Origin: Babesia bigemina | Taxonomy: Eukaryota | DNA: 64,000 bases | Assembly: GCF_000981445.1 (NCBI RefSeq) | Contig: NW_012237237.1 | Coordinates: 1-64,000, forward strand | Direction of reading: 5' to 3' | Part shown: piece by piece, positions 5,791 to 59,301 of the stretch | How positions within the stretch are numbered: position 1 is the first letter of the stretch | Layout of the letters: the number at the start of each line of letters is the position of its first letter | Made by a program: the position numbers and the translations under genes | Notes under the pieces: model-generated | The model's database searches: none | The model's input: the letters and a program-made list of their open reading frames with translations, nothing else | Told to the model about the DNA's origin: nothing

Positions 5791-5942
5791 CCCTCGAATC
5801 ACCTCGCCATAATGCCGCTATGACCTCCATTAGCCATAGCAATAACTTGTGCCTTGTCACCCTTCCCTTCCCCTCTTCCACCTCTTGCCACTGCCCTGAC
5901 CATGTGCCGCCTAGGGAGCTTGGCAAGAAATTTGACTAAATT

Positions 5943-11061: not shown

Positions 11062-12465
11062 AAAGTGCTGACCAATGTGTTGACCAAAGTGCTGACCAAC
11101 GTGGTGACCAAGGTGCTGACCAATGTGCTGACCAAGGTGGTGACCAATGTGCTGACCAATGTGCTGACCAAGGTGGTGACCAAAGTGCTGACCAACGTGG
11201 TGACCAATGTGCTGACCAAGGTGCTGACCAACGTGGTGACCAATGTGCTGACCAATGCCATGACCAAAGTGGTGACCAATTCCATGACCAAGGTGGTGAC
11301 CAAGGTGGTGACCAATGTGCTGACCAATGCCATGACCAAAGTGCTGACCAAGGTGGTGACCAATGTGCTGACCAATGCCATGACCAAAGTGCTGACCAAG
11401 TTAGTGGTCACGGCAGCGTTGACATGGTGACGGCAGCGATGACATGGTGACGGCAGCGATGACATGGTGACGGCAGCGATGATATGGTCACGGCAGCGAT
11501 GACATGGTGACGGCAGCGATGATATGGTCACGGCAGCGATGACATGGTCACGGCAGCGATGACATGGTCACGGCAGCGACGACATGGTCACGGCAGCGAC
11601 GACATGGTCACGGCAGCGATGACATGGTCACGGCAGCGATGACATGGTCACGGCAGCGATGACATGGTCACGGCAGCGATGACATGGTCACAAGTGGTGA
11701 TTATTACCCACTCTACATCGCTCCCTAATCCACTCCACACCGCTCCTTTATCCACTCTACATCGCCCCTTTACCCACTCCACATCGCTCCCTAATCCACT
11801 CTACATCGCCCCTTAACCCACTCTACATCGCTCCTAATCCACTCTACATCGCTCCCTAATCCACTCCACACCGCTCCTTTATCCACTCTACATCGCTCCC
11901 TAATCCACTCCACATCGCTCCCTAATCCACTCTACATCGCCCCTTAACCCACTCTACATCGCTCCCTAACCCACTCCACATCGCCCCTTTATCCACTCTA
12001 CATCGCCCCTTAACCCACTCCACATCGCCCCTTTATCCACTCTACATCGCTCCCTAATCCACTCTACATCGCCCCTTAACCCACTCTACATCGCTCCTCT
12101 ATCCACTCCACATCGCCCCTTTATCCACTCTACATCGCTCCCTAACCCACTCCACATCGCTCCTTGATCCACTCTACATCGCCCCTTGATCCACTCTACA
12201 TCGCCCCTTTATCCACTCTACATCGCCCCTTTACCCACTCCACATCGCCCCTTTGTCCACTCTACATCGCTCCCTAATCCACTCCACATCGCCCCTTTAT
12301 CCACTCTACATCGCTCCCTAATCCACTCCACATCGCCCCTTTATCCACTCTACATCGCCCCTTTATACACTCTACATCGCTCCCTAACCCACTCTACATC
12401 GCTCCTCTATCCACTCCACATCGCCCCTTACCCACTCTACATCGCCCCTTAACCCACTCCACATC
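11062..12465. repeat. Composite spacer 2: 12-mer (~11062-11400), 20-mer (~11405-11690), 22-mer (~11707-12465)
   Basis: Tandem repeats, same order as spacer 1. Confidence 0.95.
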
Positions 12466-12769
12466 CCTTGAATCACCTCGCCATATTACCGCTATGACCT
12501 CTATAAGCCATCCTAATAACTTGTGCTTTGTCATCCTTCACTTCCCCTCTTCCACCTCCTGCCACTGCCCTGACCATGTGCCGCCTAGGGAGCTTGACAA
12601 TAAATTTGACAAAATTTAAAACTCTAAAAATACCTTAAATAACAACCCTACTAACATCCTTAATAACCTTTGCACCGGCCTCGAGACTTTCCTCGGCTTC
12701 AACTCTGCTTCCAAAGGCTACACTGGCCAGGGGATTGTTTACTCTGACCTGGACAGGCTGTGTGACGGG

Positions 12770-15700
12770 GTGATGGGATTTTTGAGTGGTGTTCTTGATG
12801 CAGTGAAAGATGATGATGCAGTTAAAACGTATGATAAAGATACCACAAAAAACATTAATACAGTTATTAAGACTTTGAATGATAATATTGGCTCCGGGCG
12901 TACTGGGCTTGCGGCGTCTGTCGGCGCGGTGAAGGGGTGGTTGGAGGGGTATGGGAGGGAGGTGAAAGAAAAAATAAAACATGTAACTGCGCCTTTGAGA
13001 AATATGCAAGAGTTTGTTATAATAGATATTGAGACTAAAATCTTAGAGATGGAGCATAAGGATTATGAAGAGAATATAGGTAAGTTGTCTACTTGGGCTC
13101 ATGATCTTTCAGGTTTGACCGAGAAAACTCAAGACTCACTAAATGCACTTAGCAATATTGATAAACATTTCAATAATGTCTTATATCAACACGTAAATTC
13201 AATTCATCAAGCAGCTCACAGTTTCAGGGAGAACGGAATTTCGGATGTGAATAATCTCAAAGCTGTTTGTAGTAATGTGAGTGTGCAATTGAGAAATGTG
13301 ACAGCAGCCGTAATATCATATGCGGATTGTGAAGGTGAAAAGTGCATTACCGATTTGAAGGAGGTATTTACGAGACAAATTAAGACGCCAATCGAAAATA
13401 TAAAGATTCGGCTGAACAACCTTAATGTTCAGTTGGATGATTGGATCATGAAGGCGCAGTTGGTTGTGAATTCGACAATTTCGCAGTGTACGGGTATCAT
13501 CAAAATCGTTCAAAACAATGACCATGGGCGCATAAAATCTGCAGAACGGAATAACGTTGAAAAGGCGGCGACGGAACTGAAACAAAAGGCTGATAAGCTT
13601 CGCATTTTGGTAATTGAAGCAAAAAGTGAAGTTCAAAGGCTTGTTAAATCGGCAATAATTGCTGTAAACACAATGAATGAAGCCCTTAAGCGAAATGTGC
13701 AAAGTTTGAAGGATGAAATAACGAAAAAAGTACAAGGTATTAAAAATAAAATTGGTGAGCTTGGCAACCAGTATGCCGAAGCCTCCGACCGCAATTCCAT
13801 TAAAGGTATTTTTGAGTATATTAATAAACAAGTTGTAAGTATTAAGAGTGGGGTAGGTTATAAGGGGAACGAGAACAGTGGTATATATAAGCATTGGACG
13901 GATCTCAAACCCGAAATTGACCAACTGATCAGAGATCTTGCTGGTACAGATCAAGACGATGATGACGATCGAAATGGTTATCTTCATGATATTGACGAAG
14001 GGGTCGGCAGATATGCCTTGCAGTTCAAAATGCAATTTGAAAAGGCGATTAAAACAATTGTGACAGCAATGATGGAAGGAGGAGAGGAAGAAAACAAAAT
14101 TAGAGGTTTCATAATAAATGCTAGTGGTGGAGCGGGATCAACTGAAAAAATTAGAGCAGTGAAAACCGCAATGACAAATCAGATTCTAAAACTTTCCGGC
14201 GCTGCAAATATACCTAACGCTGAACCTGACGATGCTAAAAAAACCCTCGAAAGCATCGTAACTTATCTCAATGATTACGCCGAACAAATTCAAATGAAAC
14301 TCAATATATTATCTGCATTCATTTTGTCGGTTGAAAAAGATGACGCGTTAACTACATTAAATCACAAAGTAAGTCTAACGACGGGAGACAAAAATCTGCA
14401 ATCTGCTGTGAGAAACGTACTAGCTACAGTGAAAAAAATTATAGAAGGCGCTAAAGATGACGTTTCGCAGTTCATAAAAGATTCAAGTATCGGCAAGCTC
14501 AACCAGGCTATAGAGAAGGTCGAAAATATGCGAAAGACGTTTAAATATGAAGGCGTCACTGCAGCGCTCTCAGACGTGCTCCTATTTATTGAAAAGTTGC
14601 ATGACAGCCTCAGTACGACAACTGGCAAAGTCAGCAGCAAACTAAAATCTGGTACTCACTACGCCGCCGAAGTTGATGAAGCCATCGATCAGGTGACGAC
14701 GAGACTTGAGCAGCAGATACCTAGCGAGGGTAATAAAGTTGACTTAAGCAAGGAAAATGCTTTGGGGGATTACACACTTCACGTTGATCAAAAATACAGG
14801 AGTCTTCAAGCCCTTGAAGTCGGTACAGTAGTAAGCTACGAAGCTGGCGCTCTTCCAGGCAAGATTATGGATATTCAAGGGCAGGTGAACGGGGACGACG
14901 TTTTGGGAAAAGTATCTGATGAAAACGATACAACAAATATTCCCAGTATGGGACATGATAAAGTATACCGAAACACTTTCGACTTATTACTTCAACAGAT
15001 TGAAAGCAATATGCAAACCTTCTGCGAAGCCGTCGAAGGATTGGTTAAGACCGATGCCGGTACGGTGAAAGATGTGATTCCAAATAAAAGTAGAGGCGTG
15101 CAAAATTTGTTAGAAGATTTGCAAACAATGATCCATTCTGACACGCTGTATGGTACCCAGATACATCTTAGAGAAATGTACAAGGAAATTAATACCAATA
15201 TCATTGGCGACGCCCGCAGCTATAACAGTGACACAGTGCCCTCAAATCTAACACAGATAATGGTTTTTGCAAATATGTTCAACAGTACTGCCATTCCAAA
15301 TAGAATCAATGAATGCATTTCCGACATCACCGCCAAAGTCAAATACGAAGTCACCGAAAAAATCAAGACCCTTAAAAAATCGGCCCTCTCGCAGTTTGTA
15401 ACCCGTAAAACTGCCGAGTTAGAGGAGCTGAAAAAGTTCGTTCACTACCAGAAAAATATCATCAGTAAGACTATTTTCACAAATCAGACAACCGGCCTCA
15501 AGGGTCTGATGAACACTATTGGCAGCAACCTTCAGTCGTACATTGATCCACTGAGATATCCAAGCGTGAAAGATTTGTCAAAACATCTTGATTTCTATTT
15601 CAATCCCCTCTTTACCCACATCTCCACCGAAGCCTCCCCCTCCTCCCAACTGGTCGCCGGCCTCCAAGCCCGCACCTACGACCTCCTCACCCACCTCCAC

Positions 15701-18237: not shown

Positions 18238-20204
18238 AAAGTGCTGACCAAGATGCTGCCCAAAGTGTTAACCAATGTGCTGACCAAAGTGCTGACCTAT
18301 GTGCTGACCTATGTGCTGACCAGAGTAATGACCAACGTGTTGACCAATGCCATGACCAAAGTGGTGACCAATGTGCTGACCAAAGTGCTGACCAAGGTGC
18401 TGACCAAAGTGGTGACCAATGTGCTGACCAACGTGGTGACCAATGTGGTGACCAAGATGCTGACCAATGCCACGACCTATGTGCTGACCAAAGTGGTGAC
18501 CAATGCCATGACCAACGTGCTGACCAAGGTGTTGACCAAAGTGGTGACCAAGGCCACGACCAAAGTGCTGACCTAGTTGATGGTTACGGCAGCGATGACA
18601 TGGTTACGGCAGCGATGACATGGTTACGGCAGCGATGACATGGTCACGGCAGCGATGGCATGGTCACGGCAGCGATGACATGGACACAGCAGCGATGAGA
18701 TGGTCACGGCAGCGATCACATGGTCACGGCAGCAATGACATGGTTACGGCAGCGGTGACAGTGGTGACCAAAGTGGTGATTATCATCCACTCTACATCGC
18801 TCCCTAACCCACTCTACATCGCTCCTCTATCCACTCTACATCGCCCCTTTAACCACTCTACATCGCCCCTTTACCCACTCTACATCGCCCCTTAACCCAC
18901 TCCACATCGCCCCTTAACCCACTCCACATCGCTCCTCTATCCACTCTACATCGCCCCTTTAACCACTCTACATCGCCCCTTTACCCACTCTACATCGCTC
19001 CCTAACTCACTCCACATCGCTCCCTAACCCACTCTACATCGCTCCCTAACCCACTCTACATCGCCCCTTTACCCACTCTACATCGCCCCTTAATCCACTC
19101 CACATCGCCCCTTTACCCACTCTACATCGCCCCTTTATCCACTCTACATCGCCCCTTAACCCACTCTACATCGCCCCTTAACCCACTTTACATCGCTCCT
19201 TAACCCACTCCACATCGCTCCTTGACCCACACTACATCGCCCCTTTATCCACTCCACATCGCTCCCTAACCCACTCTACATCGCTCCCTTACCCACTCTA
19301 CATCGCTGCTTAACCCACTCTACATCGCTCCCTAACCCACTCTACATCGCCCCTTAACCCACTCTACATCGCCCCTTTATCCACTCTACATCGCCCCTTT
19401 ACCCACTCTACATCGCTCCTTAACCCACTCTACATCGCTCCCTAACCCACTCTACATCGCTCCTTTACCCACTCTACATCGCCCCTTAACCCACTCTGCA
19501 TCGCCCCTTTATCCACTCTACATCGCTCCCTAACCCACTCTACATCGCCCCTTTACCCACTCTACATCGCCCCTTAACCCACTCTACATCGCTCCCTTAT
19601 CCACTCCTCATCGCTCCCTAACCCACTCCACATCGCTCCCTAACCCACTCTACATCGCTCCCTAACCCACTCTACATCGCCCCTTAACCCACTCTACATC
19701 GCTCCCTTATCCACTCCACATCGCCCCTGAACCCACTCTACATCGCCCCTTTATCCACTCCACATCGCCCCTTATCCACTCTACATCGCCCCTTTACCCA
19801 CTCTACATCGCCCCTTTACCCACTCTACATCGCTCCCTAAACCACTCTACATCGCTCCCTAACCCACTCCACATCGCCCCTTAACCCACCCTACATCGCC
19901 CCTTATCCACTCCACATCGCTCCTCTATCCACTCTACATCGCTCCCTTATCCACTCTACATCGCTCCTTTATCCACTCCACATCGCTCCTCTATCCACTC
20001 TACATCGCTCCCTTATCCACTCTACATCGCTCCTTTATCCACTCTACATCGCTCCCTAACCCACCTTACATCGCTCCCTAACCCACTCTACATCGCCCCT
20101 TAACCCACTCTACATCGCTCCCTAACCCACTGTACATCGCCCCTGAACCCACTCTACATCGCCCCTTTATCCACTCTACATCGCTCCCTAACCCACTCTA
20201 CATC
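18238..20204. repeat. Composite spacer 3: 12-mer (~18238-18573), 20-mer (~18581-18760), 22-mer (~18787-20204)
   Basis: Tandem repeats. Confidence 0.95.
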
Positions 20205-20508
20205 CCTTGAATCATTTCGTCATATTACCGCTATGACCTCTATTAACCATTATAAAAACTTGTGCCTCGTCACCCTTCACTTCCCCTCTTCCACCTCTTG
20301 CCACTGCCCTGACCATGTGCCGCCTAGGGAGCTTGACAAGAAATTTGACAAAATTTAAAACCTCAAAAACACCTAAAATGACACCCCTAATAACATCCTT
20401 ACTAACCTCTGCACTGGCCTCGAAACCTTCCTCGGCTTCAACTCTGCTTCCAAAGGCTACGATGGCACTGGGATTGTCTACTCTGACCTAGATAGGCTGT
20501 GTGACGGG

Positions 20509-23500
20509 GTGATGGGATTTTTGTTTAGTATAATCACTGACGTAAATAAGAACGAAAACCTTAAGAAATACAATGATAATTTAAATGGCATCCTTGAAAA
20601 AATTAAACTCGCTAAATATAATAGAAACAATTTTGATAGTAGTATTCGCGAAGTCAGTCAGGGGATTAAGGCGTGGGTGAGGGGGGTGGAGGAGAGGAAT
20701 GAAAGTATAACAAAGCCATTAGCAAACCTTGAAAAAACTTTACATGGTCATGCGTCGGTCGAAATGGATGACAATCCCATAACAGATCAGTTGTCTACTT
20801 GGCAGGGCTTCTCCAGCATATACCTTCAAGAGGTTGAAAAATCTGAAATAGCTCTAGATGAAATAGACGATGAGTTAAGGAACGAAATAGCGCCCAAAAT
20901 AGAATTAATAAAACAAGTTGTCGATAATTTTTGGAATTCGGTCAATGATCTTGGCGTCTATGATTCCGTTAAGAAGTTAAAAGTTAAGTTCGGTGCAATT
21001 CCTAAGATTGTCAATATGGAAATTGGAACACAAATACAAGAGGTAAATAATACATTAAATGACAAGTTCGAGAAAATGTTCCGCGATATTCACAATCTCA
21101 CGCAAAATAAGAAATCGCACATTAATTCGATTCGTAAAGCTGTACAATCAGCCAAGCAGTTGGCTGATACGTTAGTTGATGACTCGACAAATGTATTTGA
21201 TAAGAAGTACAAGGCGAACATATCGGACAGATTTAATGAGATTAAGGCAAAAATCGAAAAGTTTTGTAAAGTAAATGGTGACGGGCAGCCGACGCTGTTC
21301 AGTGAGTTTTACAAAGTCAGGACCAAGGTAGAGGGGTTAGAAACAGATGTACGCCATGGATTGGGCGAATTGAAACAAGAGATAAATGGGCTTACGAAAG
21401 ATATGAATGATAGCAATCTTATTGTTAAAGAGGCGTTGCAACAGCTTGAGACGGACAGAGAACCATTGTACAGGCTAACTTTTAACGGTGCGAATTCGAT
21501 AGTGACTCTGACGAAAGGCCTCGAAGGTAAGTTTCAGAAGGTGATCCAACAGGATCTAAAAAGTTCGATTAGTGAAGTTGACAATGCAATCAGAAAGCTC
21601 GGCGCAACTTTCGGTGTAGGTGTTGGCGGCGATAAAAAACTTAGAAGCATTTTGGAACATCTTAGAACTCAAATTGGGACGATAAAGGGTTCAGACTACG
21701 AAGACAAAGGATGTTCCGCCATTGTCGCTAGAGTAAAATCTTATGCCGCAAAGTTTACGAAATCGAAATTTGGGGAAAAGGTTTTGGATGGTTGGATTGG
21801 CGACATTCTTAAAGAGGATAGTGTGGTAAAAACAAGGATTGAAGAATATATCAAGGATAACAACGGAACGAACAATCGTGGTATGAACGGCGTTGGTACG
21901 AATCGTTTCACAAACCCGCTTATCAAAGCCGATGAATTGCATAATCCGCTTAAAACTGAAATAAAGACAGTGCTTAATTCTGAGGTAATTCAGAAGGCTA
22001 CTGAAAATTTCAATGATGCGCAAGATAGTGTTGAGAAAAATCTTAATGGACTCCATGGCGTTTGCACGGCATTTGCCACGGAGCTCGGTAAGGTAATTGA
22101 CGGGAAAGATGCAGAGATCGCTAGACAAGTTGATAACCAAGTCAGAGATAATAGCAAAGGGGTAACTGAGCAATCTGACCTCAAAACTGCAGTAAAATAC
22201 ATTCTTCAGAGACTTGTTAGTAGGGCCAATAAATTTGCCTCCGATATTGGGAATTTGATCAAAGAATGCGAATTCTCCAACGTGGATGCACCATCCAACA
22301 CAGCGGTAGATCTTTACAAAAAGCTATACGACGCCATGAACGCGGGGGTAGATGGTAAGCTCAGCGAAATGAGGAGTAAGATAAGAGACCTTGACAACAT
22401 TTTTACTAAAGGCGTTAAAAACGAACTTCAGACTGAGACAAATAATATTGAACGTGTTCTCAACAACTTCAACTCTAATGTCAAAGAGCGTATCAAGGAT
22501 GCTGCTGAAAAGGCTATTGAACAGGCAGTTGGAAAGTTCGGATCGAATGGTATAATGAACCTGGAGCAATTGATGGGACAGTTCCATCAATCTGAGCGGG
22601 CCCTCCAATCCTCTGTTAAGCAAATTGAGAATCAACTGAACATACTAAAAACGTTCCCCAGTGCTGTAGACAGCAAGCGAAAAAACGCTGAAGAAATTAT
22701 GAAGACCTTAAAAACTGAAGTGCGAGAAATTTCAGCTAAAATTGAAGCCATCGACCCAATCCTGATCAAGGCAGAAAACGTTCTTGGTACGGCAATCCAA
22801 ACTCTAGAAAGATCATTAGAGGATACACGAAAGTACACTACATTAGTACTTCCGCTACTGCAACAAAATCTGCAACAGCATGTGACTAACTCATTCAATG
22901 AAATGGAAGAATACGTACAGGAGATGTTCAACGCACAGAGAAAAGCTGAATTCCAATCTTTGAAAAAGTCTGTTGATATCCAAATTCCTCAAATAAAAAG
23001 CATTATCCAATCCGACATGGAAAAAGGTCTGAAAGGACTCATGAAAAATCTGAAAGGGCCGTTTGCTCAACTGCTCAATTCTGGTGCCCATCTCAGCTCC
23101 TATACTAAAAGGGTTAAAGAGTTTTTTGCAAATTTGCTGGAAGATTTGACGCGGCAGTCTGATGTGGTTAAATACCACTCCCCTCTTCTCACCCCCCTCT
23201 CTTCCGCCCTCTCCGCCCTCCTGTCCGCAATGCACGACCAACGCCACTTCTCCGCCGACGTCTCCCTGCGCCTCGCCGAACTCCAAGCCGCGCTCACCAC
23301 CCTCACCCCTACCGCATTCGCCGAGGCCTCCCCGCTGCTCAACGTCGTCAAGCGCGGCGTCCGGGCGTTCCACGGGGAGCTCGCGAAGCAGTACGTGAGC
23401 AGGTACTCGGGGAAACAAATTACTTGGGTGAAGGACGTTGGTAAACCTCCGAAATCTGAGCCAACTGAAGAAGCGTTAAAATGTGGTAAAGTATTTTTTA

Positions 23501-25827: not shown

Positions 25828-25985
25828 CAACGTGTTGACCTAGCAGCCAGGCTAAGTGCTAAGCTAGCAACCAAGCAAAGTGGTAAGCAAGCAACCAGGC
25901 AAAGTGGTAAGCAAGCAACCAGGCAAAGTGGTAAGCTAGCAACCAGGCAACGTGCTAAGCTGGCACACAGGCAAAGTGCTGAGCT
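25828..25985. repeat. 24-bp tandem repeat (AAAGTGSTAAGCTAGCAACCAGGC-like)
   Basis: About 6 degenerate units; same repeat at 37975, 57522 and 61827. Confidence 0.9.
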
Positions 25986-26514
25986 GGCGGATGAACCGTA
26001 ATTTGGTGGGTGTTGTAGCACGTTGATTGCCCGGTGCTTTGAGTTGTGCGTTGACTGTGAGAGGTGTCCGCGTTGCCCATTGAGTCAGTGTCACGTGAGG
26101 CTGGGTGATTGGTCGCTAACGTAGGCGGCCGTGAGGGCCGCGGCGGGTGACCTAAGTCGTCTGTTGCGAGTCACTGGCAGGGTGGCGTAATCGGCGTTGG
26201 CCTCGTTAAGTAGCATTTATAAGCGGCAATGTAGCGATTGTTAATATAACATTTAGGCACGTAGCCGACACGCTCCGCCAGCATGGCGCCGATACCGCGG
26301 CTCGTAGCACGGTGCTGCTGCACTGTGGGAGTTGAGCGCACGGGGTTCGCTGCGATTTTAATGGCGTTGCGAATAGTGAATAATTTAAAGTGACAGTTGG
26401 TGCTGATCACATGCGTCGCGTCAGGGCATCTGTGGTATCCCGGGCAGCGTGGGTGTCGGTGGCCTGGGCTGGGGGGACACAGGGGTGAGGGTTAAGTAAG
26501 TCATGTTGCAGTGG
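25984..26514 (+). promoter_or_regulatory. Conserved ~530 bp non-coding block, putative promoter/5' region of the small Cys-rich TM gene
   Basis: Highly similar copies precede all four small genes; indels between copies break any shared reading frame. Confidence 0.5.
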
Positions 26515-26929
26515 GTGAGTGCGTTGCTAGGTGATTGATATGCTAGCAGGCTGAGGGGACTGGGAGCGGCAGTGGTAGTGTTGCAGTTGGTGAGTGCTGC
26601 TTAGGTGATTGACATGTTCGCAGGTTGAGGGGACTGGAAGCGGCAGTGGTACGTGTTGTAGTAGGTGAGTGCTGCTTGAGTGATTGATAAGTTTGCAGGT
26701 TGAGGGGACTGGGAGCGGCAGTGGTACGTGTTGCAGTTGGTGAGTGCGTTGCTTGAGTGATTGATATGTTTGCAGGGTGAGGGGACTGGGAGCGGCAGTA
26801 GTATGTGTTGCAGTTGGTGAGTGCGTTGCTTGAGTGATTGATATGTTTGCAGGGTGAGGGGACTGGGAGCGGCAGTGGTACGTGTTGCAGTTGGTGAGTG
26901 CGTTGCTCAAGTGATTGACATGTCTGCAG
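26515..26929 (+). repeat. ~75-bp repeat made of six putative 34-36 nt GT-AG introns and 40-41 nt mini-exons
   Basis: GTGAGT...TGATTGAY...GCAG at 26515-26549, 26590-26623, 26665-26698, 26740-26775, 26817-26852 and 26894-26929. Confidence 0.75.
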
Positions 26930-26952
26930 GTTGAGGGGAGTGGGAGGGGAAG

Positions 26953-27528
26953 ATGGGAGGGAAGACGTACTTGCCAGGTGATGCGTGTACTAGGTGTAGT
27001 AATGGATGTCGAAGATATGAAGTATGTAATTGTTGTCCCTGGTGTTGTGTGGAATGTACTAAAGATTTCAACAGTTGCTATGAATGTCTTCCAATTGTGT
27101 GGAAGCGCACTAATGGCCGGGAGCCTTACGATTGCAAACCTTCGCCATGTAGCGTCAAATGTAAAGGCAAGGAGAAGACATGTCAATGTGAGTGTAACAG
27201 TTGTAAAAAGAAACGTGAAAGTGAACAACGTACTGTCTCCTTCCAGTCTCTCACCCTTCAACAGCAATCCGCTGCTTCCCCTGACACTCAGGATCACGCC
27301 GTCACTCAAGATCGTGGCTCCCATACCGAAGCTCAAACCCAAAATCACTATTCTCCAGAATCTTCTACAGGTCCTTCCATTTCCCCCTCCGCCATCACCG
27401 CCGTCATCGTTGCCATCATCGTCGCCATCATCCTGCTGGACCTGTGCATCTTCCGCTTCCCGGTGGGCCGCAACATCCGCGATTTCCTCGTACGCAAGAT
27501 ACCCTTCTGCATCGCGTTCCACAGCTAA
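26953..27528 (+). CDS. Small Cys-rich single-TM membrane protein, copy a (191 aa, tail type A)
   Basis: ATG after GGGAAG; Cys-rich N-terminus (CxxCxxxC...CxCCxxCCxxC), S/T/Q/P linker, TM AITAVIVAIIVAIILL, tail DLCIFRFPVGRNIRDFLVRKIPFCIAFHS; paralogs in the window. Confidence 0.8.
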   Translation: MGGKTYLPGDACTRCSNGCRRYEVCNCCPWCCVECTKDFNSCYECLPIVWKRTNGREPYDCKPSPCSVKCKGKEKTCQCECNSCKKKRESEQRTVSFQSLTLQQQSAASPDTQDHAVTQDRGSHTEAQTQNHYSPESSTGPSISPSAITAVIVAIIVAIILLDLCIFRFPVGRNIRDFLVRKIPFCIAFHS

Positions 27529-27613
27529 ACTCCGCAATTTGTTAGCGCCAACATCGTAATCCAAATCCCACTGAGCACCTAACTGCCAACTGACATCTAA
27601 TGTCTAGACAGTA

Positions 27614-27811
27614 TTGATTGCGTTGATGAACAATCACATGGGCAACGAGGTGACTACTTCCCTCACCCCTTACATCATCGTCCCCGTCGCCCTCGTCATC
27701 GTCGTCGCCATCATCCTGCTCGACCTGTGCATCTTCCGATTCCCGGTGGGCCGCAACATCCGCGATTTCCTCGTACGCAAGATACCCTTCTGCATCGCGT
27801 TCTACAGCTGA
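27614..27811 (+). pseudogene. Orphan TM + tail-A cassette (micro-ORF or fragment)
   Basis: PYIIVPVALVIVVAIILLDLCIFRFPVGRNIRDFLVRKIPFCIAFYS with no Cys domain. Confidence 0.65.
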
Positions 27812-27898
27812 ACTATGCAATTTGGTAGCGCAAACATCGTAATCCATATCCCACCGATCACCTAACTGGCAACTACATCTAATGTTATACACAAAGTA

Positions 27899-28048
27899 AT
27901 GATTGCGTTGGTTACCAATGCCATAAGCAGCAAGGTTACTATGATTCCCGTCCCTTACATTATCGTCCCCGTCATCCTCGTCATCTGCGTCATGAGCTAC
28001 TTCCGCATCCGGCCCTTCCACAAGGTGCGGTATCTACTGCGCAGCTAA
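27899..28048 (+). pseudogene. Orphan TM + tail-B cassette (49-aa micro-ORF or fragment)
   Basis: Hand translation: MIALVTNAISSKVTMIPVPYIIVPVILVICVMSYFRIRPFHKVRYLLRS*. Confidence 0.65.
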
Positions 28049-28096
28049 TGACCACAACCCAACTGCCAACTGACATCTAATATTCTAGACACAGTA

Positions 28097-28303
28097 ATGA
28101 TTGCATTGATGAAAAATCACATGAGCAGTGATGTGACTATAACACTTTCCCCCCCTCCCTACTTCGCCATCGCCGCCGTCATCGTTGCCATCATCGTCGC
28201 CATCATCCTGCTCGACCTGTGCATCTTCCGCTTCCCGGTGGGCCGCAACATCCGCGATTTCCTCGTACGCAAGATACCGTTCTGCATCGCGTTCTACAGC
28301 TGA
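28097..28303 (+). pseudogene. Orphan TM + tail-A cassette (68-aa micro-ORF or fragment)
   Basis: ORF track; same TM/tail as the 26953 gene. Confidence 0.65.
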
Positions 28304-28404
28304 GCTTAGCAATTTGTTAGCGCATAAGTCGTAATCCACATCCCACTGATCACCTAATTGGCAACTGACATCTAATGTTCTAGACAGAGTAATGATTGCG
28401 TTGA

Positions 28405-29343
28405 TGACCAATGCCATGACCAACGTGGTGACCAATATGCTGACCAACGTGTTGACCAATGTGCTGACCAAAGTGTTGATCAACGTGTTGACAAATGTGC
28501 TGACCAATGCCATGACCAATGCCATGACCAAGTTAGTGGTCACGGCAGCGATGACATGGTCACGGCAGCGATGACATGGTGACGGCAGCGGTGACATGGT
28601 TACGGCAGCGATGACATGGTCACGGCAGCGATGACATGGTCACAGCAGCGATGACATGGTGACCAGAGTAGTGATTATCATCCACTCTTCATCGCTCCTT
28701 AACCCACTCCACATCGCTCCTTTACCCACTCTTCATCGCTCCCTAATCCACTCTACATCGCTCCCTTCTCCACTCTACATCGCCCCTTTACCCACTCCAC
28801 ATCGCTCCCTAACCCACTCTACATCGCCCCTTTATCCACTCTACATCGCTCCCTTATCCACTCTACATCGCCCCTTTATCCACTCTACATCGCCCCTTAA
28901 CCCACGCCACATCGCCCCTTAACCCACGCCACATCGCTCTTTTATCCACTCCACATCGCCACTTAACCCACTCTACATCGCCCCTTAATCCACTCCACAT
29001 CGCTCCCTAACCCACTCCACATCGCTCCTTTATCCACTCTAATCGCTCTCTAACCCACTCCACATCGCTCCTTTATCCACTCTACATCGCCCCTTTATCC
29101 ACTCCACATCGCCCCTTTACCCACTCTACATCGCCCCTTAACCCACTCCACATCGCTCCCTAACCCACTCTACATCGCCCCTTTATCCACTCTACATCGC
29201 CCCTTTATCCACTCCACATCGCCCCTTTATCCACTCCACATCGCCCTTTACCTACTCTACATCGCCCCTTTATCCACTCTACATCGCTCCCTAACCCACT
29301 CCACATCGCCCCTCATCCACTCTACATCGCCCCTTTATCCACT
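28405..29343. repeat. Composite spacer (12-/20-/22-mer) not followed by a ves gene
   Basis: The 22-mer array ends abruptly at 29343 and joins a 24-mer fragment plus the conserved block. Confidence 0.9.
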
Positions 29344-29354
29344 GGCGAAGTGCT

Positions 29355-30277
29355 AAGCTGGCGGATGAACCGTAATTTGGTTGTTGCGTTGAGTTGTGCG
29401 TTGACTGTGAGAGGCGTCCGCGTTGCCCATTGAGTGAGTGTCACGTGAGGCTGGGTGATTGGTCGCTACGTAGCGGGCCGTGAGGGCCGCGGCGGGTGAC
29501 CAAAGTCGTGTGTTGCGAGTCACTGGCAGGGTGGCGTAATTGGCGTTGGCCCGGTTAAGTAGCATTTATAGGCGGCGATGTAGCGATCGTTAATGTCACA
29601 TTTAGGCACGTAGCCAACACGCTCCGCCAGTATGGCGTCTATATTGCGGCTCGTAGCACGGTGCGGCTGCACTGTGGGAGTTGAGCGCACGGGGTTCGCT
29701 GCAATTTTCATGGCGTTGCGAATAGTGAATAATTTAGAGTGACAGTTGGTGCTGATCACATGCGCCGCGTTAGGCGGAGGTGTGGTATCCCGGGCAGCGT
29801 GGGTGTCGGTGGCCTGGGCTGGGGGATACAGGGGTGAGGGTTAAGTAAGTCATGTTGTAGTTGGTGAGTGCGTTGCTAGGTGATTGATAGTTTGCAGGCT
29901 GAGGGGAGTGGGAGCGGCAGTGGTAGTGTTGCAGTTGGTGAGTGCTGCTTAGGTGATTGACATGTTCGCAGGTTGAGGGGACTGGAAGCGGCAGTGGTAC
30001 GTGTTGTAGTAGGTGAGTGCTGCTTGAGTGATTGATAAGTTTGCAGGTTGAGGGGACTGGGAGCGGCAGTGGTACGTGTTGCAGTTGGTGAGTGCGTTGC
30101 TTGAGTGATTGATATGTTTGCAGGGTGAGGGGACTGGGAGCGGCAGTAGTATGTGTTGCAGTTGGTGAGTGCGTTGCTTGAGTGATTGATATGTTTGCAG
30201 GGTGAGGGGACTGGGAGCGGCAGTGGTACGTGTTGCAGTTGGTGAGTGCGTTGCTCAAGTGATTGACATGTCTGCAG
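29355..30277 (+). promoter_or_regulatory. Conserved block (~29355-29863) plus six-unit mini-intron array (29864-30277)
   Basis: Paralogous to 25984-26929. Confidence 0.55.
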
Positions 30278-30300
30278 GTTGAGGGGAGTGGGAGGGGAAG

Positions 30301-30876
30301 ATGGGAGGGAAGACGTACTTGCCAGGTGATGCGTGTACTAGGTGTAGTAATGGATGTCGAAGATATGAAGTATGTAATTGTTGTCCCTGGTGTTGTGTGG
30401 AATGTACTAAAGATTTCAACAGTTGCTATGAATGTCTTCCAATTGTGTGGAAGCGCACTAATGGCCGGGAGCCTTACGATTGCAAACCTTCGCCATGTAG
30501 CGTCAAATGTAAAGGCAAGGAGAAGACATGTCAATGTGAGTGTAACAGTTGTAAAAAGAAACGTGAAAGTGAACAACGTACTGTCTCCTTCCAGTCTCTC
30601 ACCCTTCAACAGCAATCCGCTGCTTCCCCTGACACTCAGGATCACGCCGTCACTCAAGATCGTGGCTCCCATACCGAAGCTCAAACCCAAAATCACTATT
30701 CTCCAGAATCTTCTACAGGTCCTTCCATTTCCCCCTCCGCCATCACCGCCGTCATCGTTGCCATCATCGTCGCCATCATCCTGCTGGACCTGTGCATCTT
30801 CCGCTTCCCGGTGGGCCGCAACATCCGCGATTTCCTCGTACGCAAGATACCCTTCTGCATCGCGTTCCACAGCTAA
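30301..30876 (+). CDS. Small Cys-rich single-TM protein, copy b (identical to copy a)
   Basis: Identical 191-aa translation. Confidence 0.8.
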   Translation: MGGKTYLPGDACTRCSNGCRRYEVCNCCPWCCVECTKDFNSCYECLPIVWKRTNGREPYDCKPSPCSVKCKGKEKTCQCECNSCKKKRESEQRTVSFQSLTLQQQSAASPDTQDHAVTQDRGSHTEAQTQNHYSPESSTGPSISPSAITAVIVAIIVAIILLDLCIFRFPVGRNIRDFLVRKIPFCIAFHS

Positions 30877-30974
30877 ACTCCGCAATTTGTTAGCGCCAAC
30901 ATCGTAATCCAAATCCCACTGAGCACCTAACTGCCAACTGACATCTAATGTCTAGACAGTATTGATTGCGTTGA

Positions 30975-32513
30975 TGACCAATGCCATGACCAACGTGGTG
31001 ACCAATATGCTGACCAACGTGTTGACCAATGTGCTGACCAAAGTGTTGATCAACGTGTTGACAAATGTGCTGACCAATGCCATGACCAATGCCATGACCA
31101 AGTTAGTGGTCACGGCAGCGATGACATGGTCACGGCAGCGATGACATGGTGACGGCAGCGGTGACATGGTTACGGCAGCGATGACATGGTCACGGCAGCG
31201 ATGACATGGTCACAGCAGCGATGACATGGTGACCAGAGTAGTGATTATCATCCACTCTTCATCGCTCCTTAACCCACTCCACATCGCTCCTTTACCCACT
31301 CTTCATCGCTCCCTAATCCACTCTACATCGCTCCCTTCTCCACTCTACATCGCCCCTTTACCCACTCCACATCGCTCCCTAACCCACTCTACATCGCCCC
31401 TTTATCCACTCTACATCGCTCCCTTATCCACTCTACATCGCCCCTTTATCCACTCTACATCGCCCCTTAACCCACGCCACATCGCCCCTTAACCCACGCC
31501 ACATCGCTCTTTTATCCACTCCACATCGCCACTTAACCCACTCTACATCGCCCCTTAATCCACTCCACATCGCTCCCTAACCCACTCCACATCGCTCCTT
31601 TATCCACTCTAATCGCTCTCTAACCCACTCCACATCGCTCCTTTATCCACTCTACATCGCCCCTTTATCCACTCCACATCGCCCCTTTACCCACTCTACA
31701 TCGCCCCTTAACCCACTCCACATCGCTCCCTAACCCACTCTACATCGCCCCTTTATCCACTCTACATCGCCCCTTTATCCACTCCACATCGCCCCTTTAT
31801 CCACTCCACATCGCCCTTTACCTACTCTACATCGCCCCTTTATCCACTCTACATCGCTCCCTAACCCACTCCACATCGCCCCTCATCCACTCTACATCGC
31901 CCCTTTATCCACTCCACATCGCTCCCTTATCCACTCTACATCGCCCCTTTACCCACTCTACATCGCCCCTTTATCCACTCTACATCGCTCCTTTATCCAC
32001 TCTACATCGCCCCTTTATCCACTCTACATCGCTCCTTTATCCACTCTACATCGCCCCTTTATCCACTCCACATCGCCCCTTTATCCACTCCACATCGCCC
32101 CTTTATCCACTCTACATCGCCCCTTTATCCACTCTACATCGCTCCCTTATCCACTCTACATCGCCCCTTAACCCACTCTACATCGCTCCCTTATCCACTC
32201 TACATCGCCCCTTAACCCACTCTACATCGCTCCCTAACCCACTCTACATCGCCCCTTAACCCACCTTACATCGCCCCTTTATCCACTCTACATCGCTCCC
32301 TAACCCACTCTACATCGCCCCTTTATCCACTCTACATCGCCCCTTAACCCACTCTACATCGCCCCTTATCCACTCTACACCGCACCTTAACCCACTCTAC
32401 ATCGCTCCTCTACCCACTCTACATCGCCCCTTAACTCACTCTACATCGCCCCTTTATCCACTCTACATCGCTCCCTAACCCACTCCGCATCGCTCCATAA
32501 CCCACTCCACATC
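30975..32513. repeat. Composite spacer: 12-mer, 20-mer, 22-mer (~31252-32513)
   Basis: Tandem repeats. Confidence 0.95.
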
Positions 32514-38398: not shown

Positions 38399-39734
38399 TG
38401 GATGAACCGTAATTTGGTGGGTGTTGTAGCACGTTGATTGTTTGGTGCGTTGAGCTGTGCGTTGACAGTGAGCGGTGTCTGCGTTACCCATTGAGTGAGT
38501 GTCACGTGAGGCTGGGTGATTGGTCGCTAACGTAGGCGGTCGTGAGGGCCGCGGCGGGTGACTTAAGTCGTGTGTTGCGAGTCACTGGCAGGGTGGCGTA
38601 ATCGGCGTTGGCCTCGTTAAGTAGCATTTAGAGGCAGCAATGTAGCGATCGTTAATATCACATTTAGGCACGTAGCCGACACGCTCCGCCAGCATGGCGC
38701 CGATACCGCGGCTCGTAGCACGGTGCTGCTGCACTGTGGGAGTTGAGCGCACGGGTCGCTGCGATTTTCATAGCGTTGCGAATATTCAATAATTTAGAGT
38801 GACAGTTGGTGCCGATCACATGCGTCGCGTCAGGCACAGCTGTGGTATCCCGGGCAGCGTGGGTGTCGGTGGCCTGGGCTGGGGGGATACAGTGGTGAGG
38901 GTTAAGTAAGCCATGTTGCAGTTGGTGAGTGCTGCTTAGGTGATTGATATGTCTGCAGGCTGAGGGGAGTGGGAGCGGCAGTGGTACGTGTTGCAGTTGG
39001 TGAGTGCGTTGCTAGGTGATTGATGTTCGCAGGTTGAGGGGATGAGTGAGTGTCACGTGAGGCTGGGTGATTGGTCGCTAACGTAGGCGGTCGTGAGGGC
39101 CGCGGCGGGTGACTTAAGTCGTGTGTTGCGAGTCACTGGCAGGGTGGCGTAATCGGCGTTGGCCTCGTTAAGTAGCATTTAGAGGCAGCAATGTAGCGAT
39201 CGTTAATATCACATTTAGGCACGTAGCCGACACGCTCCGCCAGCATGGCGCCGATACCGCGGCTCGTAGCACGGTGCTGCTGCACTGTGGGAGTTGAGCG
39301 CACGGGTCGCTGCGATTTTCATAGCGTTGCGAATATTCAATAATTTAGAGTGACAGTTGGTGCCGATCACATGCGTCGCGTCAGGCACAGCTGTGGTATC
39401 CCGGGCAGCGTGGGTGTCGGTGGCCTGGGCTGGGGGGATACAGTGGTGAGGGTTAAGTAAGCCATGTTGCAGTTGGTGAGTGCTGCTTAGGTGATTGATA
39501 TGTCTGCAGGCTGAGGGGAGTGGGAGCGGCAGTGGTACGTGTTGCAGTTGGTGAGTGCGTTGCTAGGTGATTGATGTTCGCAGGTTGAGGGGACTGGAAG
39601 CGGCAGTGGTAGTGTTGCAGTTGGTGAGTGCGTTGCTAGGTGATTGATATGCTTGCAGGCTGAGGGGACTGGGAGCGGCAGCGGTAGTGTTGCAGTTGGT
39701 GAGTGCGTTGCTTGAGTGATTGATATGTTCGCAG
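38395..39734 (+). promoter_or_regulatory. Conserved block with internal 551-bp tandem duplication (38492-39042 / 39043-39593) and mini-intron units
   Basis: Direct comparison of the two halves; four GT-AG units between ~39476 and 39734 precede the ATG. Confidence 0.55.
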
Positions 39735-39757
39735 GTTGAGGGGACTGGGAGGGGAAG

Positions 39758-40192
39758 ATGGCGCAGTGTTGGAAGTGCCACAATGGATGCACTCGGCGTG
39801 ACTGTTATTGCTGCCCAGAGTGTTGCAAAGGATGTAAACCGGTGTGTCTGCAATGTGCCGAGTTTGTCCACCCGCGCCGAAGTGGAGGAGAATGCCATGA
39901 TTCGGGATGTAAAAACTGTAATGACGGCTGTATGTGTAACTGTTGTCAACGTAAACGCCTCTCCTCCTCCCATTCCCAAACTACTGTCAGTTCACAGGGC
40001 GGCGTCTCTTCCCCCGGATCCCCCTCTCCCCCCCGTGTAGAGCAGCAAACCGGTCGACAGTCTACCACCGCTTCTAACCACGCCCCTTACATCATCGCCG
40101 CTGTCGTCGCCCTCGTCATCGTCGTCATCTGCGCCATGATATACTTCCGCATCCGGCCGTTCCACAGGGTGCGGTATCTACTGCGCAGCTGA
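39758..40192 (+). CDS. Small Cys-rich single-TM protein, copy c (144 aa, tail type B)
   Basis: MAQCWKCHNGCTRRDCYCCPECCKGC..., S/P linker, TM PYIIAAVVALVIVVICAMI, tail YFRIRPFHRVRYLLRS. Confidence 0.8.
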   Translation: MAQCWKCHNGCTRRDCYCCPECCKGCKPVCLQCAEFVHPRRSGGECHDSGCKNCNDGCMCNCCQRKRLSSSHSQTTVSSQGGVSSPGSPSPPRVEQQTGRQSTTASNHAPYIIAAVVALVIVVICAMIYFRIRPFHRVRYLLRS

Positions 40193-40288
40193 TCACAATA
40201 ACCCGATGGGCAACTGACATCTAATGTTATAGACAGAGTAATGATTACGTTTATTATCAAGCATATGAGCAGTGAGGTGACCTACCGC

Positions 40289-43200
40289 CTGACCAAAGTG
40301 CTGACCAACGTGCTGACCAAGGTGCTGACCAACGTGTTGACCAATGTGCTGACCAAACAGCTGACCAAGCACCTGACCAAGTTGATGGTTACGGCAGCTA
40401 TGACATGGTCACGGCAGCGGTGACATGGTCACGGCAGCGATGACAGTTGATGGTCACGGCAGCGATGACAGGTAACGGCAGCGATGACATGGTCACGGCA
40501 GCGATGACATGGTCACGGCAGCGATGACAGTGGTGACCAGAGTGGTGATTATTATCCACTCTACATCGCCCCTTATCCACTCTACATCGCTCCTTTATCC
40601 ACTCTGCATCGTCCCTTTATCCACTCTACATCGCCCCTTAACCCACTCTACATCGCTCCTTTATCCACTCTACATCGCTCCCTAATCCACTTTTCATCGC
40701 CCCTTAACCCACTCTACATCGCCCCTTTATCCACTCTGCATCGTCCCTTTATCCACTCTACATCGCCCCTTAACCCACTCTACATCGCTCCCTTATCCAC
40801 TCCACATCGCCCCTTTATCCACTCTACATCGCCCCTTAACCCACTCTACACCGCTCCTTACTCCACTCTACATCGCCCCTTAACCCACTCCACATCGCCA
40901 CTTAACCCACTCTACATCGCCCCTTAACCCAAACTACATCGCCCTTTTACCCACTCCACATCGCCCTTTTATCCACTCTACATCGCCCCTTAACCCACTC
41001 TACATCGCCCCTTAATCTACTCTACATCGCTCCCTAACGCACTCCACATCGCTCCTCTATCCACTCTACATCGCTCCCTTATCCACTCTACATCGCTCCT
41101 TATCCACTCCACATCGCCCTTTAACCTCCTCTAATCGCTCCTTTATCCACTCTACATCGCCCCTTTATCCACTCCACATCGCCCCTTTACCCACTCTCCC
41201 TAACCCACTCCACATCGCTCCCTAACCCACTCTACATCGCCCCTTGATCCACTCTACATCGCTCCCTAACCCACTCTACATCGCCCCTTAACCCACTCTA
41301 CATCGCTCCTTTACTCACCTTACATCGCTCCCTAACCCACTCTACATCGCTCCTTTACCCACTTACATCGCCCCTTACTCCACTCTACATCGCTCCTTAT
41401 CCACTCTACATCGCTCCCTTATCCACTCTACATCGCTCCCTAACCCACTCCTCATCGCCCCTTTATGCACTCTACATCGCTCCCTAACCCACTCCACATC
41501 GCCCCTTTATCCACTTTACATCGCTCACTAACCCACTCCACATCGCTCCTTTATCCACTCTACATCGCTCCCTAACCCACTCTACATCGCTCCCTTATCC
41601 ACTCTACATCGCCCCTTTATCCACTCTTCATCGCCCCTTTATCCACTCTACATCGCCCCTTAACCCACTCTACATCGCCCCTTTACCCACTCTACATCGC
41701 CCCTTTATCCACTCTACATCGCCCCTTTATCCACTCTACATCGCCCCTTAGCCCACTCCACATCGCTCCCTAATGCACTCTACATCGCTCCCTAACCCAC
41801 TCTACATCGCTCCTTTATCCACTCCACATCGCCCCTTTACCCACTCTACATCGCTCCTTCACCTCCTCTAATCGCCCCTTTATCCACTCTACATCGCCCC
41901 TTGATCCACTCTACATCGCTCCCTAACCCACTCTACATCGCCCCTTAACCCACTCTACATCGCTCCTTTACTCACCTTACATCGCTCCCTAACCCACTCT
42001 ACATCGCTCCTTTACCCACTTACATCGCCCCTTACTCCACTCTACATCGCTCCTTATCCACTCTACATCGCTCCCTTATCCACTCTACATCGCTCCCTAA
42101 CCCACTCCTCATCGCCCCTTTATGCACTCCACATCGCTCCCTAACCCACTCTACATCGCCCCTTATCCACTCTACATCGCTCCCTTATCCACTCTACATC
42201 GCTCCCTAACCCACTCCTCATCGCCCCTTTATGCACTCTACATCGCCCCTTATCCACTTCACATCGCTCCCTAACCCACTCTACATCGCCCCTTTATCCA
42301 CTCCACATCGCTCCCTAACCCACTCCACATCGCCCCTTTATCCACTCTACATCGCCCCTTTATCCACTCTACATCGCTCCTTTACCCACTCTACATCGCT
42401 CCTTTATCCACTCTACATCGCCCCTTTATCCACTCTACATCGCCCCTTTATCCACTCTACATCGCCCCTTGATCCACTCTACATCGCTCTCTGATCCACT
42501 CTACATCGCCCCTTTACCCACTCTACATCGCTTCCTAACCCACTCTACATCGCCCCTTTACCCACTCTAAATCGCCCCTTTATCCACTCTACATCGCTCC
42601 CTAATCCACTCTACATCGCCCCTTAACCCACTCTACATCGCTCCCTTATCCACTCTACATCGCCCCTTTACCCACCTTACATCGCCCCTTTACCCACTCT
42701 ACATCGCCCCTTTATCCACTCCACATCGCCACTTTATCCACCCTACATCGCCCCTTTATCCACTCTACATCGCTCCCTTATCCACTCTACATCGCCCCTT
42801 TAGCCACTCTACATCGCTCCTTTATCCACTCTACATCGCTCCTTTATCCACTCTACATCGCCCCTTTATCCACTCTACATCGCTCCCTAACCCACTCTAC
42901 ATCGCTCCCTAACCCACTCTACATCGCCCCTTAACCCGCCCTACATCGCTCCCTAACCCACTCTACATCGCTCCTCTATCCACTCTACATCGCTCCTTAA
43001 CTTCCTCTAATCGCTCTCTTATCCACTCTACATCGCCCCTTATCCACTCTACATCGCCCCTTTATCCACTCCTCATCGCCCCTTTATCCACCTACATCGC
43101 CCCTTAACCCACTCTACATCGCCCCTTAACCCACTCTACATCGCCCCTTTATCCACTCTACATCGCTCCCTAACCCACTCTACATCGCCCCTTTATCCAC

Positions 43201-43849
43201 TCTACATCGCTCCCTAATCCACTCTACATCGCTCCCTAACCCACTCCACATCGCTCCTTAACCCACTCCACATCGCCCCTTTACCCACTCTACATCGCCC
43301 CTTAACCCACTCTACATCGCCCCTTTATCCACTCCACATCGCTCCCTAATCCACTCTACATCGCTCCCTAACCCACTCCACATCGCTCCTTAACCCACTC
43401 CACATCGCCCCTTTACCCACTCTACATCGCCCCTTAACCCACTCTACATCGCTCCCTAATCCACTCTACATCGCCCCTTTATCCACTCTACATCGCCCCT
43501 TACTCCACTCTACATCGCCCCTTACTCCACTCTACATCGCTCCTTTATCCACTCTACATCGCTCCTTAACCCACTCTACATCGCCCCTTTATCCACTCTA
43601 CATCGCTCCTTTACCCACTCTACATCGCCCCTTAACCCACTCCACATCGCTCCCTAACCCACTCTACATCGCTCCTTAACCCACTCTACATCGCCCCTTT
43701 ACCCACTCTATATCGCCCCTTAACCCACTCTATATCGCCCCTTAACCCACTCTACATCGCCCCTTTACCCACTCTACATCGCTCCTTAACCCACTCCACA
43801 TCGCCCCTTATCCACTCTACATCGCTCCTTAACCCACTCTACATCGCCC
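40289..43849. repeat. Composite spacer: 12-mer, 20-mer and the longest 22-mer array (~40556-43849)
   Basis: Tandem repeats. Confidence 0.95.
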
Positions 43850-58839: not shown

Positions 58840-59301
58840 ATGGGCTATACTCCATTGTGTAAGTGTACAAAACGATGTACAGAGCATGAGTGTCTTTGTT
58901 GTCATTTGTGTTGTGCAGGATGTAGGAGTCCAAGTTGTCTTCGATGTCTCAATCTGTCTACTCGGCTAAGGAGTGGATTCTGGGACTGCAAACCTCAGAG
59001 ATGTAATGAATGTGACACCAAATTGTGTCCATGTGACTGTTGTGAGAAAAAAAAATTGGAAGAACGTCGACAGCTTCGCTCTTCTTCCTCCCTCGCAGTC
59101 CAATCGCCTAGTGTCTCCTCTTCTACCACCGTACAGCGTTCCACCGGTGAACCCAGTGCTGTTCATACCACCGCTCCATCCAATTCCTCCCCCGTCCCTT
59201 ACATCATCGCCGCCGTCGCCCTCCTCATCGTCGTCGTCTGCGTCATGGTCTACTTCCGCATCCGGCCGTTCCACAGGGTGCGGTATCTACTGCGCAGCTG
59301 A
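58840..59301 (+). CDS. Small Cys-rich single-TM protein, copy d (153 aa, tail type B)
   Basis: CKCTKRCTEHECLCCHLCCAGC..., DCKP..C motif shared with copy a, S/T linker, TM, YFRIRPFHRVRYLLRS tail. Confidence 0.8.
   Translation: MGYTPLCKCTKRCTEHECLCCHLCCAGCRSPSCLRCLNLSTRLRSGFWDCKPQRCNECDTKLCPCDCCEKKKLEERRQLRSSSSLAVQSPSVSSSTTVQRSTGEPSAVHTTAPSNSSPVPYIIAAVALLIVVVCVMVYFRIRPFHRVRYLLRS

What the first reader, a model, noticed from the sequence alone, without database searches (positions are those of the whole stretch)
26515..26952. A minisatellite whose unit is an intron plus a mini-exon, stacked upstream of each small Cys-rich gene
Seen: the ~75-bp repeat before all four small genes (26515-26929, 29864-30277, ~39476-39734, 58399-58810) parses as a GTGAGT donor, a TGATTGAY branch-like motif and a GCAG acceptor, giving 34-36 nt introns. 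These are separated by 40-41 nt G-rich exons. Donor and acceptor are kept in every unit while internal bases drift. The gene ATG lies 23-29 nt after the last acceptor. Exon lengths are not multiples of 3, and most ATGs in the array lie inside the introns. Known: piroplasm introns are very short, in this size range. Inference: a copy-number-variable array of 5'UTR introns in which incomplete splicing leaves upstream ATGs, which could tune translation or gate expression. I do not recognise this arrangement as described.
Basis: partly seen in the sequence, partly recalled or inferred. Interest (0 to 1): 0.85.

Follow-up and report, generated by a model that had tools for sequence, protein, structure and literature searches.

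The report
Stacked tiny introns before Babesia genes
In the cattle parasite Babesia bigemina, a family of small cysteine-rich predicted membrane proteins is preceded by a tandem repeat of 4-6 units, each likely a 35-base intron plus a 40-base non-coding exon, which would mean the message leader must be spliced several times to shed tiny upstream reading frames; splicing itself is untested.

Summary
Observation confirmed. 24 units (6, 6, 4 plus 2 in a partial duplicate, 6) read GTGAGT..TGATTGA..GCAG (33-36 nt), with 40-41 nt spacers. All homologues are B. bigemina hypothetical proteins (59 models); 34 of 59 carry array-derived peptides, so the array is widespread in the family. Variation avoids the donor, branch-like and acceptor blocks and concentrates between them; 2% of shuffles give such a parse. 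A public ab initio model uses all six acceptors of one array. The array is non-coding: an in-frame TGA lies 6-8 codons before the main ATG in 4 of 4 copies. All 18 intronic ATGs would open four-codon uORFs if retained. Splicing and the transcription start are untested. None of 38 family models appears in a published cross-strain expression table, which is ambiguous. Intron-plus-exon tandem repeats are known (TOUCH3, SmPoMuc, human UTR repeats); a family-wide 5' UTR array in a piroplasm was not found in print. Best reading: 5' UTR introns multiplied by tandem duplication (0.6). Regulated tuning is speculative (0.2).

The parts
26515..26952 (+). Array 1: six predicted introns (26515-26549, 26590-26623, 26665-26698, 26740-26775, 26817-26852, 26894-26929), five 40-41 nt spacers and a 23-nt last exon with an in-frame TGA
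   Evidence: a public model uses all six acceptors
26953..27528 (+). Cys-rich ORF, 191 aa, 18 Cys in the first 95 residues, no N-terminal hydrophobic stretch, one predicted transmembrane segment near the C-terminus
25985..26514 (+). Conserved upstream region of about 530 bp (about 93% identical between loci), candidate promoter and first exon; extra donor-like sites at -30 and -19 of the first donor
29864..30300 (+). Array 2: six units, identical to array 1 from unit 2 onward, joined to a different upstream region
30301..30876 (+). Second copy of the 191-aa ORF
38925..39042 (+). Two-unit array remnant in an exact 551-bp tandem duplication whose junction lies in the spacer after unit 2
39476..39757 (+). 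Array 3: four predicted introns (34, 33, 35, 36 nt) and a 23-nt last exon
39758..40192 (+). Cys-rich ORF, 144 aa, one predicted transmembrane segment
58399..58839 (+). Array 4: six predicted introns (34-36 nt) and a 29-nt last exon
58840..59301 (+). Cys-rich ORF, 153 aa, one predicted transmembrane segment

Best explanation
The repeat is likely a chain of short spliceosomal introns in the 5' untranslated leader of a B. bigemina-specific family of small Cys-rich, predicted single-pass membrane proteins, likely multiplied by tandem duplication of one intron-plus-exon module. Shown by sequence: every unit has donor, branch-like and acceptor blocks in order; the array cannot extend the reading frame; intronic ATGs read ATG-NNN-GCA-GGN-TGA across the acceptor. 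Inferred: a transcript starting upstream is spliced 4-6 times to a G-rich leader segment of 144-231 nt; a retained intron would insert a four-codon upstream ORF and lower initiation at the main ATG, which is the selection that would keep the signals intact; copy number likely changes by unequal exchange between paralogues rather than being set for a purpose.
For: Signals invariant in 16 of 16 distinct introns, with variation packed into the two blocks between them; per-site diversity 0.150 in introns versus 0.076 in spacers. Branch-like A lies 11 nt from the intron end in 15 of 17 units examined, while donor-to-branch varies 22-24. Full parse in 2.2% of shuffles and in 0 of 5 other arrays. The parse is on the gene's sense strand only. 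Public model P0001 chains onto array 1 at 263 of 263 residues using all six acceptors and three of the GTGAGT donors. In-frame TGA in the last exon in 4 of 4 copies; 15 of 59 public models begin directly at the Cys domain. Array peptides in 34 of 59 models versus 0 of 103 control pieces. A start just upstream of the array would give a spliced leader near the B. bovis median 5' UTR of 152 nt (PMC4148916, passages).
Against: No junction read and no transcription start were seen. The public models are ab initio consensus calls (PMC4066756) and disagree with each other on donors and frame. 0 of 38 family models searched are among 3,721 genes of a blood-stage and kinete table, though that was another strain mapped to the reference with a 1-CPM filter. 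Clusters of 2-4 GTGAGT also lie on the minus strand after 8 of 8 large-gene 3' ends, so the hexamer may have a non-splicing role here. Units are related by descent and indel alignment is ambiguous, so the P values are optimistic; GT+AG invariance alone is not significant (P=0.18). Arrays 1 and 2 keep an exonic ATG (19-codon uORF) after full splicing, and 6-8 further ATGs lie in the 560 nt upstream. 3 of 16 distinct introns have an extra AG between branch and acceptor.
Confidence: 0.6

Rival explanations
1. The array is a DNA-level element (protein-binding sites for silencing or activation, or a G-rich exchange point between paralogues) and is not spliced; the conserved blocks are binding motifs that happen to resemble splice signals.
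For: GTGAGT clusters on the minus strand after 8 of 8 large-gene ends. Both local rearrangement junctions fall inside arrays: arrays 1 and 2 differ at 43 places up to 26560 and at none from 26561 to 27625, and the 551-bp duplication breaks in a spacer. G4Hunter-type score >=1.2 in 14-20% of array windows versus 1.1% window-wide (my implementation of a recalled algorithm). G4 motifs near var genes are reported (PMC2736202, PMC5093961; search listing only).
Against: It does not explain why three blocks match donor, branch-like and acceptor motifs in order, on the sense strand, with fixed branch-to-AG spacing. A canonical four-run G3 motif is present in only 1 of 3 arrays. Both junctions could be assembly artefacts. 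This role is not exclusive of splicing.
Confidence: 0.2
2. The units were introns, but transcription now starts within or after the array, or the family is mostly silent, so the array is a relic homogenised by gene conversion.
For: 0 of 38 models in the published expression table. The array starts 282-441 nt from the ATG, beyond the 152-nt median UTR of B. bovis.
Against: Gene conversion alone should not spare signal columns while non-signal intron columns vary. The ORFs are intact, with conserved Cys spacing and divergent residues between. An initiator-like TCACATT sits 266-268 nt upstream of the first donor in 4 of 5 leaders, two of which are duplicates.
Confidence: 0.13
3. The spacers are coding mini-exons that give a variable Gly/Ser-rich N-terminal extension, as many public models have it.
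For: 24 of 59 public models hold three or more array-derived 5-mers.
Against: Spacers of 40-41 nt shift the frame; a TGA in frame with the main ATG lies downstream of the last acceptor in 4 of 4 copies; P0001 reaches the C-terminal frame only by translating the Cys domain's start out of frame and cutting a seventh intron through it.
Confidence: 0.05

Closest known systems
Multiplication of a pre-existing intron by internal tandem duplication (Arabidopsis TOUCH3; Gao and Lynch 2009, as summarised in PMC4974935, passages)
   Same: A whole intron with flanking exon is duplicated head to tail, so intron number rises with repeat number.
   Different: Here 4-6 copies, units of only 73-77 nt, non-coding, and widespread in a gene family of about 60 models; splicing not shown.
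SmPoMuc polymorphic mucins of Schistosoma mansoni (PMC2576457, passages)
   Same: Parasite multigene family whose 5' region is a variable-number tandem repeat of exon plus intron, homogenised across paralogues.
   Different: SmPoMuc units are about 1 kb with a coding 27-bp exon; here the exon is 40-41 nt and non-coding, and the intron interior varies more than the exon.
Variable internal tandem repeats at exon-intron boundaries in human segmental-duplication genes (PMC2812944, passages)
   Same: Repeat-number variation changes intron structure among paralogues; 8 of 27 intron modifications lie in UTRs.
   Different: There the repeats mainly create novel introns from cryptic sites; here each unit holds a complete intron.
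B. bovis ves1-beta (2-11 introns) and smORF genes (PMC2034396, passages); B. bigemina ves2 (PMC4066756, section 22 part 1)
   Same: Variable intron number in a Babesia variant-gene family; small genes interspersed among large variant-antigen-like genes.
   Different: [quoted passage not shown]
Alternative 5' UTR splicing that adds or removes upstream AUGs in mammals (PMC3488318, passages)
   Same: Alternative leader segments rich in uAUGs and short uORFs, proposed to regulate translation.
   Different: Not built from a tandem array of near-identical introns.

Membership tests
U2-type spliceosomal introns | GT donor consensus, branch-site adenosine and YAG acceptor in order | tested here: met
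   24 of 24 units; the branch assignment rests on a recalled general consensus, not on Babesia data
U2-type spliceosomal introns | Signals conserved while the interior varies | tested here: met
   units not independent
U2-type spliceosomal introns | Removed from the RNA | not testable with these tools
   No run shown to hold the organism was available
5' UTR introns | Lie upstream of the start codon and outside the reading frame | tested here: met
   In-frame TGA between last acceptor and ATG in 4 of 4 copies
5' UTR introns | Lie downstream of the transcription start | tested here: inconclusive
   Only an initiator-like motif at -266 to -268 in 4 of 5 leaders; the 7-mer is weak evidence
Intron multiplication by tandem duplication | Repeat unit equals one whole intron plus flanking exon, with copy number differing among paralogues | tested here: met
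   Period 75-77; 6, 4 and 6 units at three independent loci
SmPoMuc-type coding exon repeats | In-frame coding exon, length a multiple of three | tested here: not met
   Exons 40-41 nt, stops in frame
smORF / VESA2 | Signal peptide and no membrane anchor | tested here: not met
   Hydropathy maximum 0.08-0.98 in the first 40 residues, 3.0-3.2 near the C-terminus; no signal-peptide predictor was run
smORF / VESA2 | Sequence homology to smORF or to the ves1 N-terminus | tested here: not met
   All 41 profile hits among 1.84 billion representatives are B. bigemina hypothetical models of this family

The most novel reading that the evidence does not exclude
A copy-number rheostat made of introns: each unit is an independent splicing checkpoint that leaves a four-codon uORF if missed, so protein output scales with splicing efficiency to the power of the unit number. 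Recombination inside the array swaps promoters onto coding cassettes and changes the unit number. This would gate a so far unnamed, B. bigemina-specific family of about 60 variant Cys-rich membrane proteins by stage or by copy.
Probability: 0.2. Interest if true: 0.8.

Novelty: new variant of a known kind. Interest (0 to 1): 0.52.

Why it matters
If spliced, this is a natural, family-wide series of 5' UTR introns differing only in copy number, which makes intron multiplication and the effect of leader introns and uORFs on expression directly measurable in a piroplasm, where UTRs are not annotated (PMC9531838, passages). It also shows that many public models of the family are likely wrong at the 5' end (34 of 59 translate array sequence), which has hidden a Cys-rich, hypervariable, species-specific membrane-protein family lying among the large variant-antigen-like genes.

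Tried and rejected
No whole genome is held for the window, so native B. bigemina introns could not be used as a reference. Sequencing runs: no RNA holder listed; 8 of the 24 listed runs were laid, on 26000-27600 and 57900-59400, and gave 0 reads, which is no test. An exact-pattern scan of metagenome contigs found 0 matches. Pfam: no family at its cut-off for 3 small and 6 large proteins. The AlphaFold model is weak (pLDDT 65, pTM 0.38); Foldseek against PDB gave no match at E<=0.001; the ESM Atlas gave no usable hit. Six locus tags were absent from the supplements of PMC5660447 and PMC9531838; the cluster table of PMC5660447 holds no 'BBBOND' ids, so that blank says nothing; its GFF3 was unreadable. 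Chaining P0001 onto array 2 failed, because the upstream sequence differs. Searches of earlier scan findings by place, by sequence and by Babesia words returned nothing. Coding mini-exons were rejected. A loose GT..AG parse was rejected as evidence (48% of shuffles).

Full report
Context. The window holds seven large ORFs of 1143-1970 aa on the + strand, separated by ordered tandem arrays, and four small Cys-rich ORFs. The small proteins hit only Babesia bigemina hypothetical proteins: 36 and 5 hits, and 41 hits of a profile among 1.84 billion representatives, whose 17 new members are all named B. bigemina. In all 59 public models were collected, on the four largest contigs and on small ones. 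That the large ORFs are ves1-like is recalled from their C-terminus; Pfam did not name them.

Observation. The repeat is there as described: 24 units in arrays of 6, 6, 2, 4 and 6, each GTGAGTGC..GTGATTGA..GCAG of 33-36 nt followed by 40-41 nt of G-rich spacer. 24 of the 26 plus-strand TGATTGA of the window lie in these units. Arrays 1 and 2 are identical from 26561 onward and the two-unit array is part of an exact 551-bp duplication, so there are three independent loci.

Is the parse more than chance? A loose GTRAG..YAG parse is not (48% of 20,000 dinucleotide shuffles of one unit). Donor, branch-like TRAY and first YAG together occurred in 2.2%, and with G|GT and AG|G flanks in 0.15%; five other arrays of the window gave none. 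These patterns were written after the fact. The pattern of variation is more telling. Among 16 distinct introns (of 22 in the four arrays) and 14 distinct spacers (of 18), the signal blocks never vary, 15 of 24 other intron columns do, and 11 of 41 spacer columns do (Fisher P=0.008; nine donor and acceptor columns all invariant P=0.019; GT and AG alone P=0.18). The branch-like A lies 11 nt from the end in 15 of 17 units examined while the donor-to-branch distance varies from 22 to 24. Units share descent and the indels align ambiguously, so these values are optimistic.

Public annotation. Model P0001 chains onto array 1 with 263 of 263 residues matched. It uses all six acceptors, three GTGAGT donors, two GTACGT donors and one GTGAGG donor, plus a seventh intron through the Cys domain. 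The annotation is a consensus of ab initio finders trained on B. bovis, improved by hand (PMC4066756, passages). So the acceptors look like Babesia acceptors to a trained model, but this is not RNA evidence. Array-derived 5-mers occur in 34 of 59 models (three or more in 24 of 59), against 0 of 103 control pieces: the array is widespread in the family.

Coding or not. The last exon has a TGA in frame with the main ATG, 6-8 codons upstream, in 4 of 4 copies. 15 of 59 models begin directly at the Cys domain and the alignment places their start together. The array is therefore non-coding, and the public N-terminal extensions are likely artefacts. 18 of 20 ATGs in the four arrays are intronic, and each would give a four-codon ORF ending at the TGA just past the acceptor if its intron were retained. 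Against a tidy gate: four units lack the ATG, arrays 1 and 2 keep an exonic ATG (19-codon uORF) after full splicing, and 6-8 more ATGs lie in the 560 nt upstream, one at -12 that only the -19 or -30 donor would remove.

Transcription. Untested; the run searches are listed under Tried and rejected. The B. bovis median 5' UTR is 152 nt and its initiator is TYAYWWW (PMC4148916, passages). The spliced array part is 144-231 nt and the unspliced part 282-441 nt; TCACATT lies 266-268 nt before the first donor in 4 of 5 leaders. In a published table of 3,721 genes detected in blood stages and kinetes, 0 of 38 family models searched (of 59) were present, while a control gene was found (PMC9806345, supplement 1; three apparent hits were digits inside numbers). 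That study mapped another strain to the reference and kept genes with at least 1 CPM in all three samples of a group, so hypervariable multicopy genes may drop out. The result fits silence, clonal expression or mapping loss.

The protein. 144-191 aa, 18 Cys in the first 95 residues with conserved spacing and divergent residues between, a low-complexity linker, one hydrophobic segment and a short conserved tail of two types; no N-terminal hydrophobic stretch. No Pfam family, fold match or Atlas hit. It is not smORF or VESA2, which are predicted to be secreted (PMC2034396, passages; PMC4066756, section 22 part 1). A variant membrane protein is the likely role (inference).

Rivals. A DNA-level role has some support: GTGAGT clusters on the minus strand after 8 of 8 large-gene ends, G-rich windows in the spacers, and two rearrangement junctions inside arrays, which may be assembly artefacts. 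It does not explain the order and spacing of the three blocks. A relic array and coding mini-exons are less likely.

Comparison with what is known. Multiplication of an existing intron by tandem duplication is described (PMC4974935, passages), as are exon-plus-intron repeats in a parasite gene family (SmPoMuc, PMC2576457, passages), variable repeats that alter introns in human UTRs (PMC2812944, passages) and uAUG-rich alternative 5' UTRs (PMC3488318, passages). Unchecked notes of this scan list similar arrays in fungi and protists; one led me to the TOUCH3 case. I found no description of this array or this protein family in full-text searches on Babesia or on repeats and introns, nor in passages of PMC5660447, PMC9531838, PMC6381282 and PMC7126163. 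The library lacks most subscription papers, and the supplements of PMC4066756 (proteomics, ves lists) were not seen and may bear on expression.

Verdict. A real feature, likely a family-wide array of 5' UTR introns (0.6); a new variant of a known kind. The regulatory reading is possible but has no direct support (0.2). Existing public RNA-seq could settle the splicing question. Interest 0.52.

Noticed in passing
window 27608-28303 and 59390-60061: After two of the small genes lie three further copies each of the C-terminal transmembrane cassette (two types, ending ...PFCIAFYS or ...RVRYLLRS). Each follows a conserved spacer with CTGAC and a TAG/CAG pair; 4 of 6 have their own ATG (49-68 aa). 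They could be alternative last exons, micro-genes or silent donors.
   Followed up: partly
window, after 3476, 10937, 18115, 25680, 37827, 49952, 57363, 60345 (minus strand): Clusters of 2-4 GTGAGT on the minus strand right after the stop of 8 of 8 large-gene 3' ends, followed by a YAG overlapping the stop region: a possible spliced antisense RNA or a DNA-binding motif.
   Followed up: partly
window 38495-38535 and equivalents near -430 to -390 of each first donor: An upstream intron-like stretch, GTGAG..GCTAAC.GTAG (30-41 nt), in the conserved leader; if real, transcription starts more than 430 nt upstream of the array.
   Followed up: no
window 5820-6099, 12495-12773, 20235-20512, 51805-52084: Four large ves1-like ORFs (family name recalled, not from a call) have in-frame stops in the conserved N-terminal part, whereas the copies at 32542 and 61452 are open there; possibly silent copies.
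   Followed up: no
window, e.g. 11065-12465, 18238-20204, 40278-43849: The large genes are preceded by an ordered set of 12-bp, 20-bp and 22-bp tandem arrays (up to 3.3 kb, strongly C-skewed), and three of the four small-gene leaders by a 24-bp array.
   Followed up: no
window 25975-29340 versus 29346-31900; 38492-39593: Two recent-looking duplications with junctions inside the arrays; real recombination or misassembly.
   Followed up: partly
window 61452-61835 and 62800-64000; 60150-60345: A truncated 5' piece of a large gene repeated before the next copy, and an isolated 3' end of a large gene.
   Followed up: no
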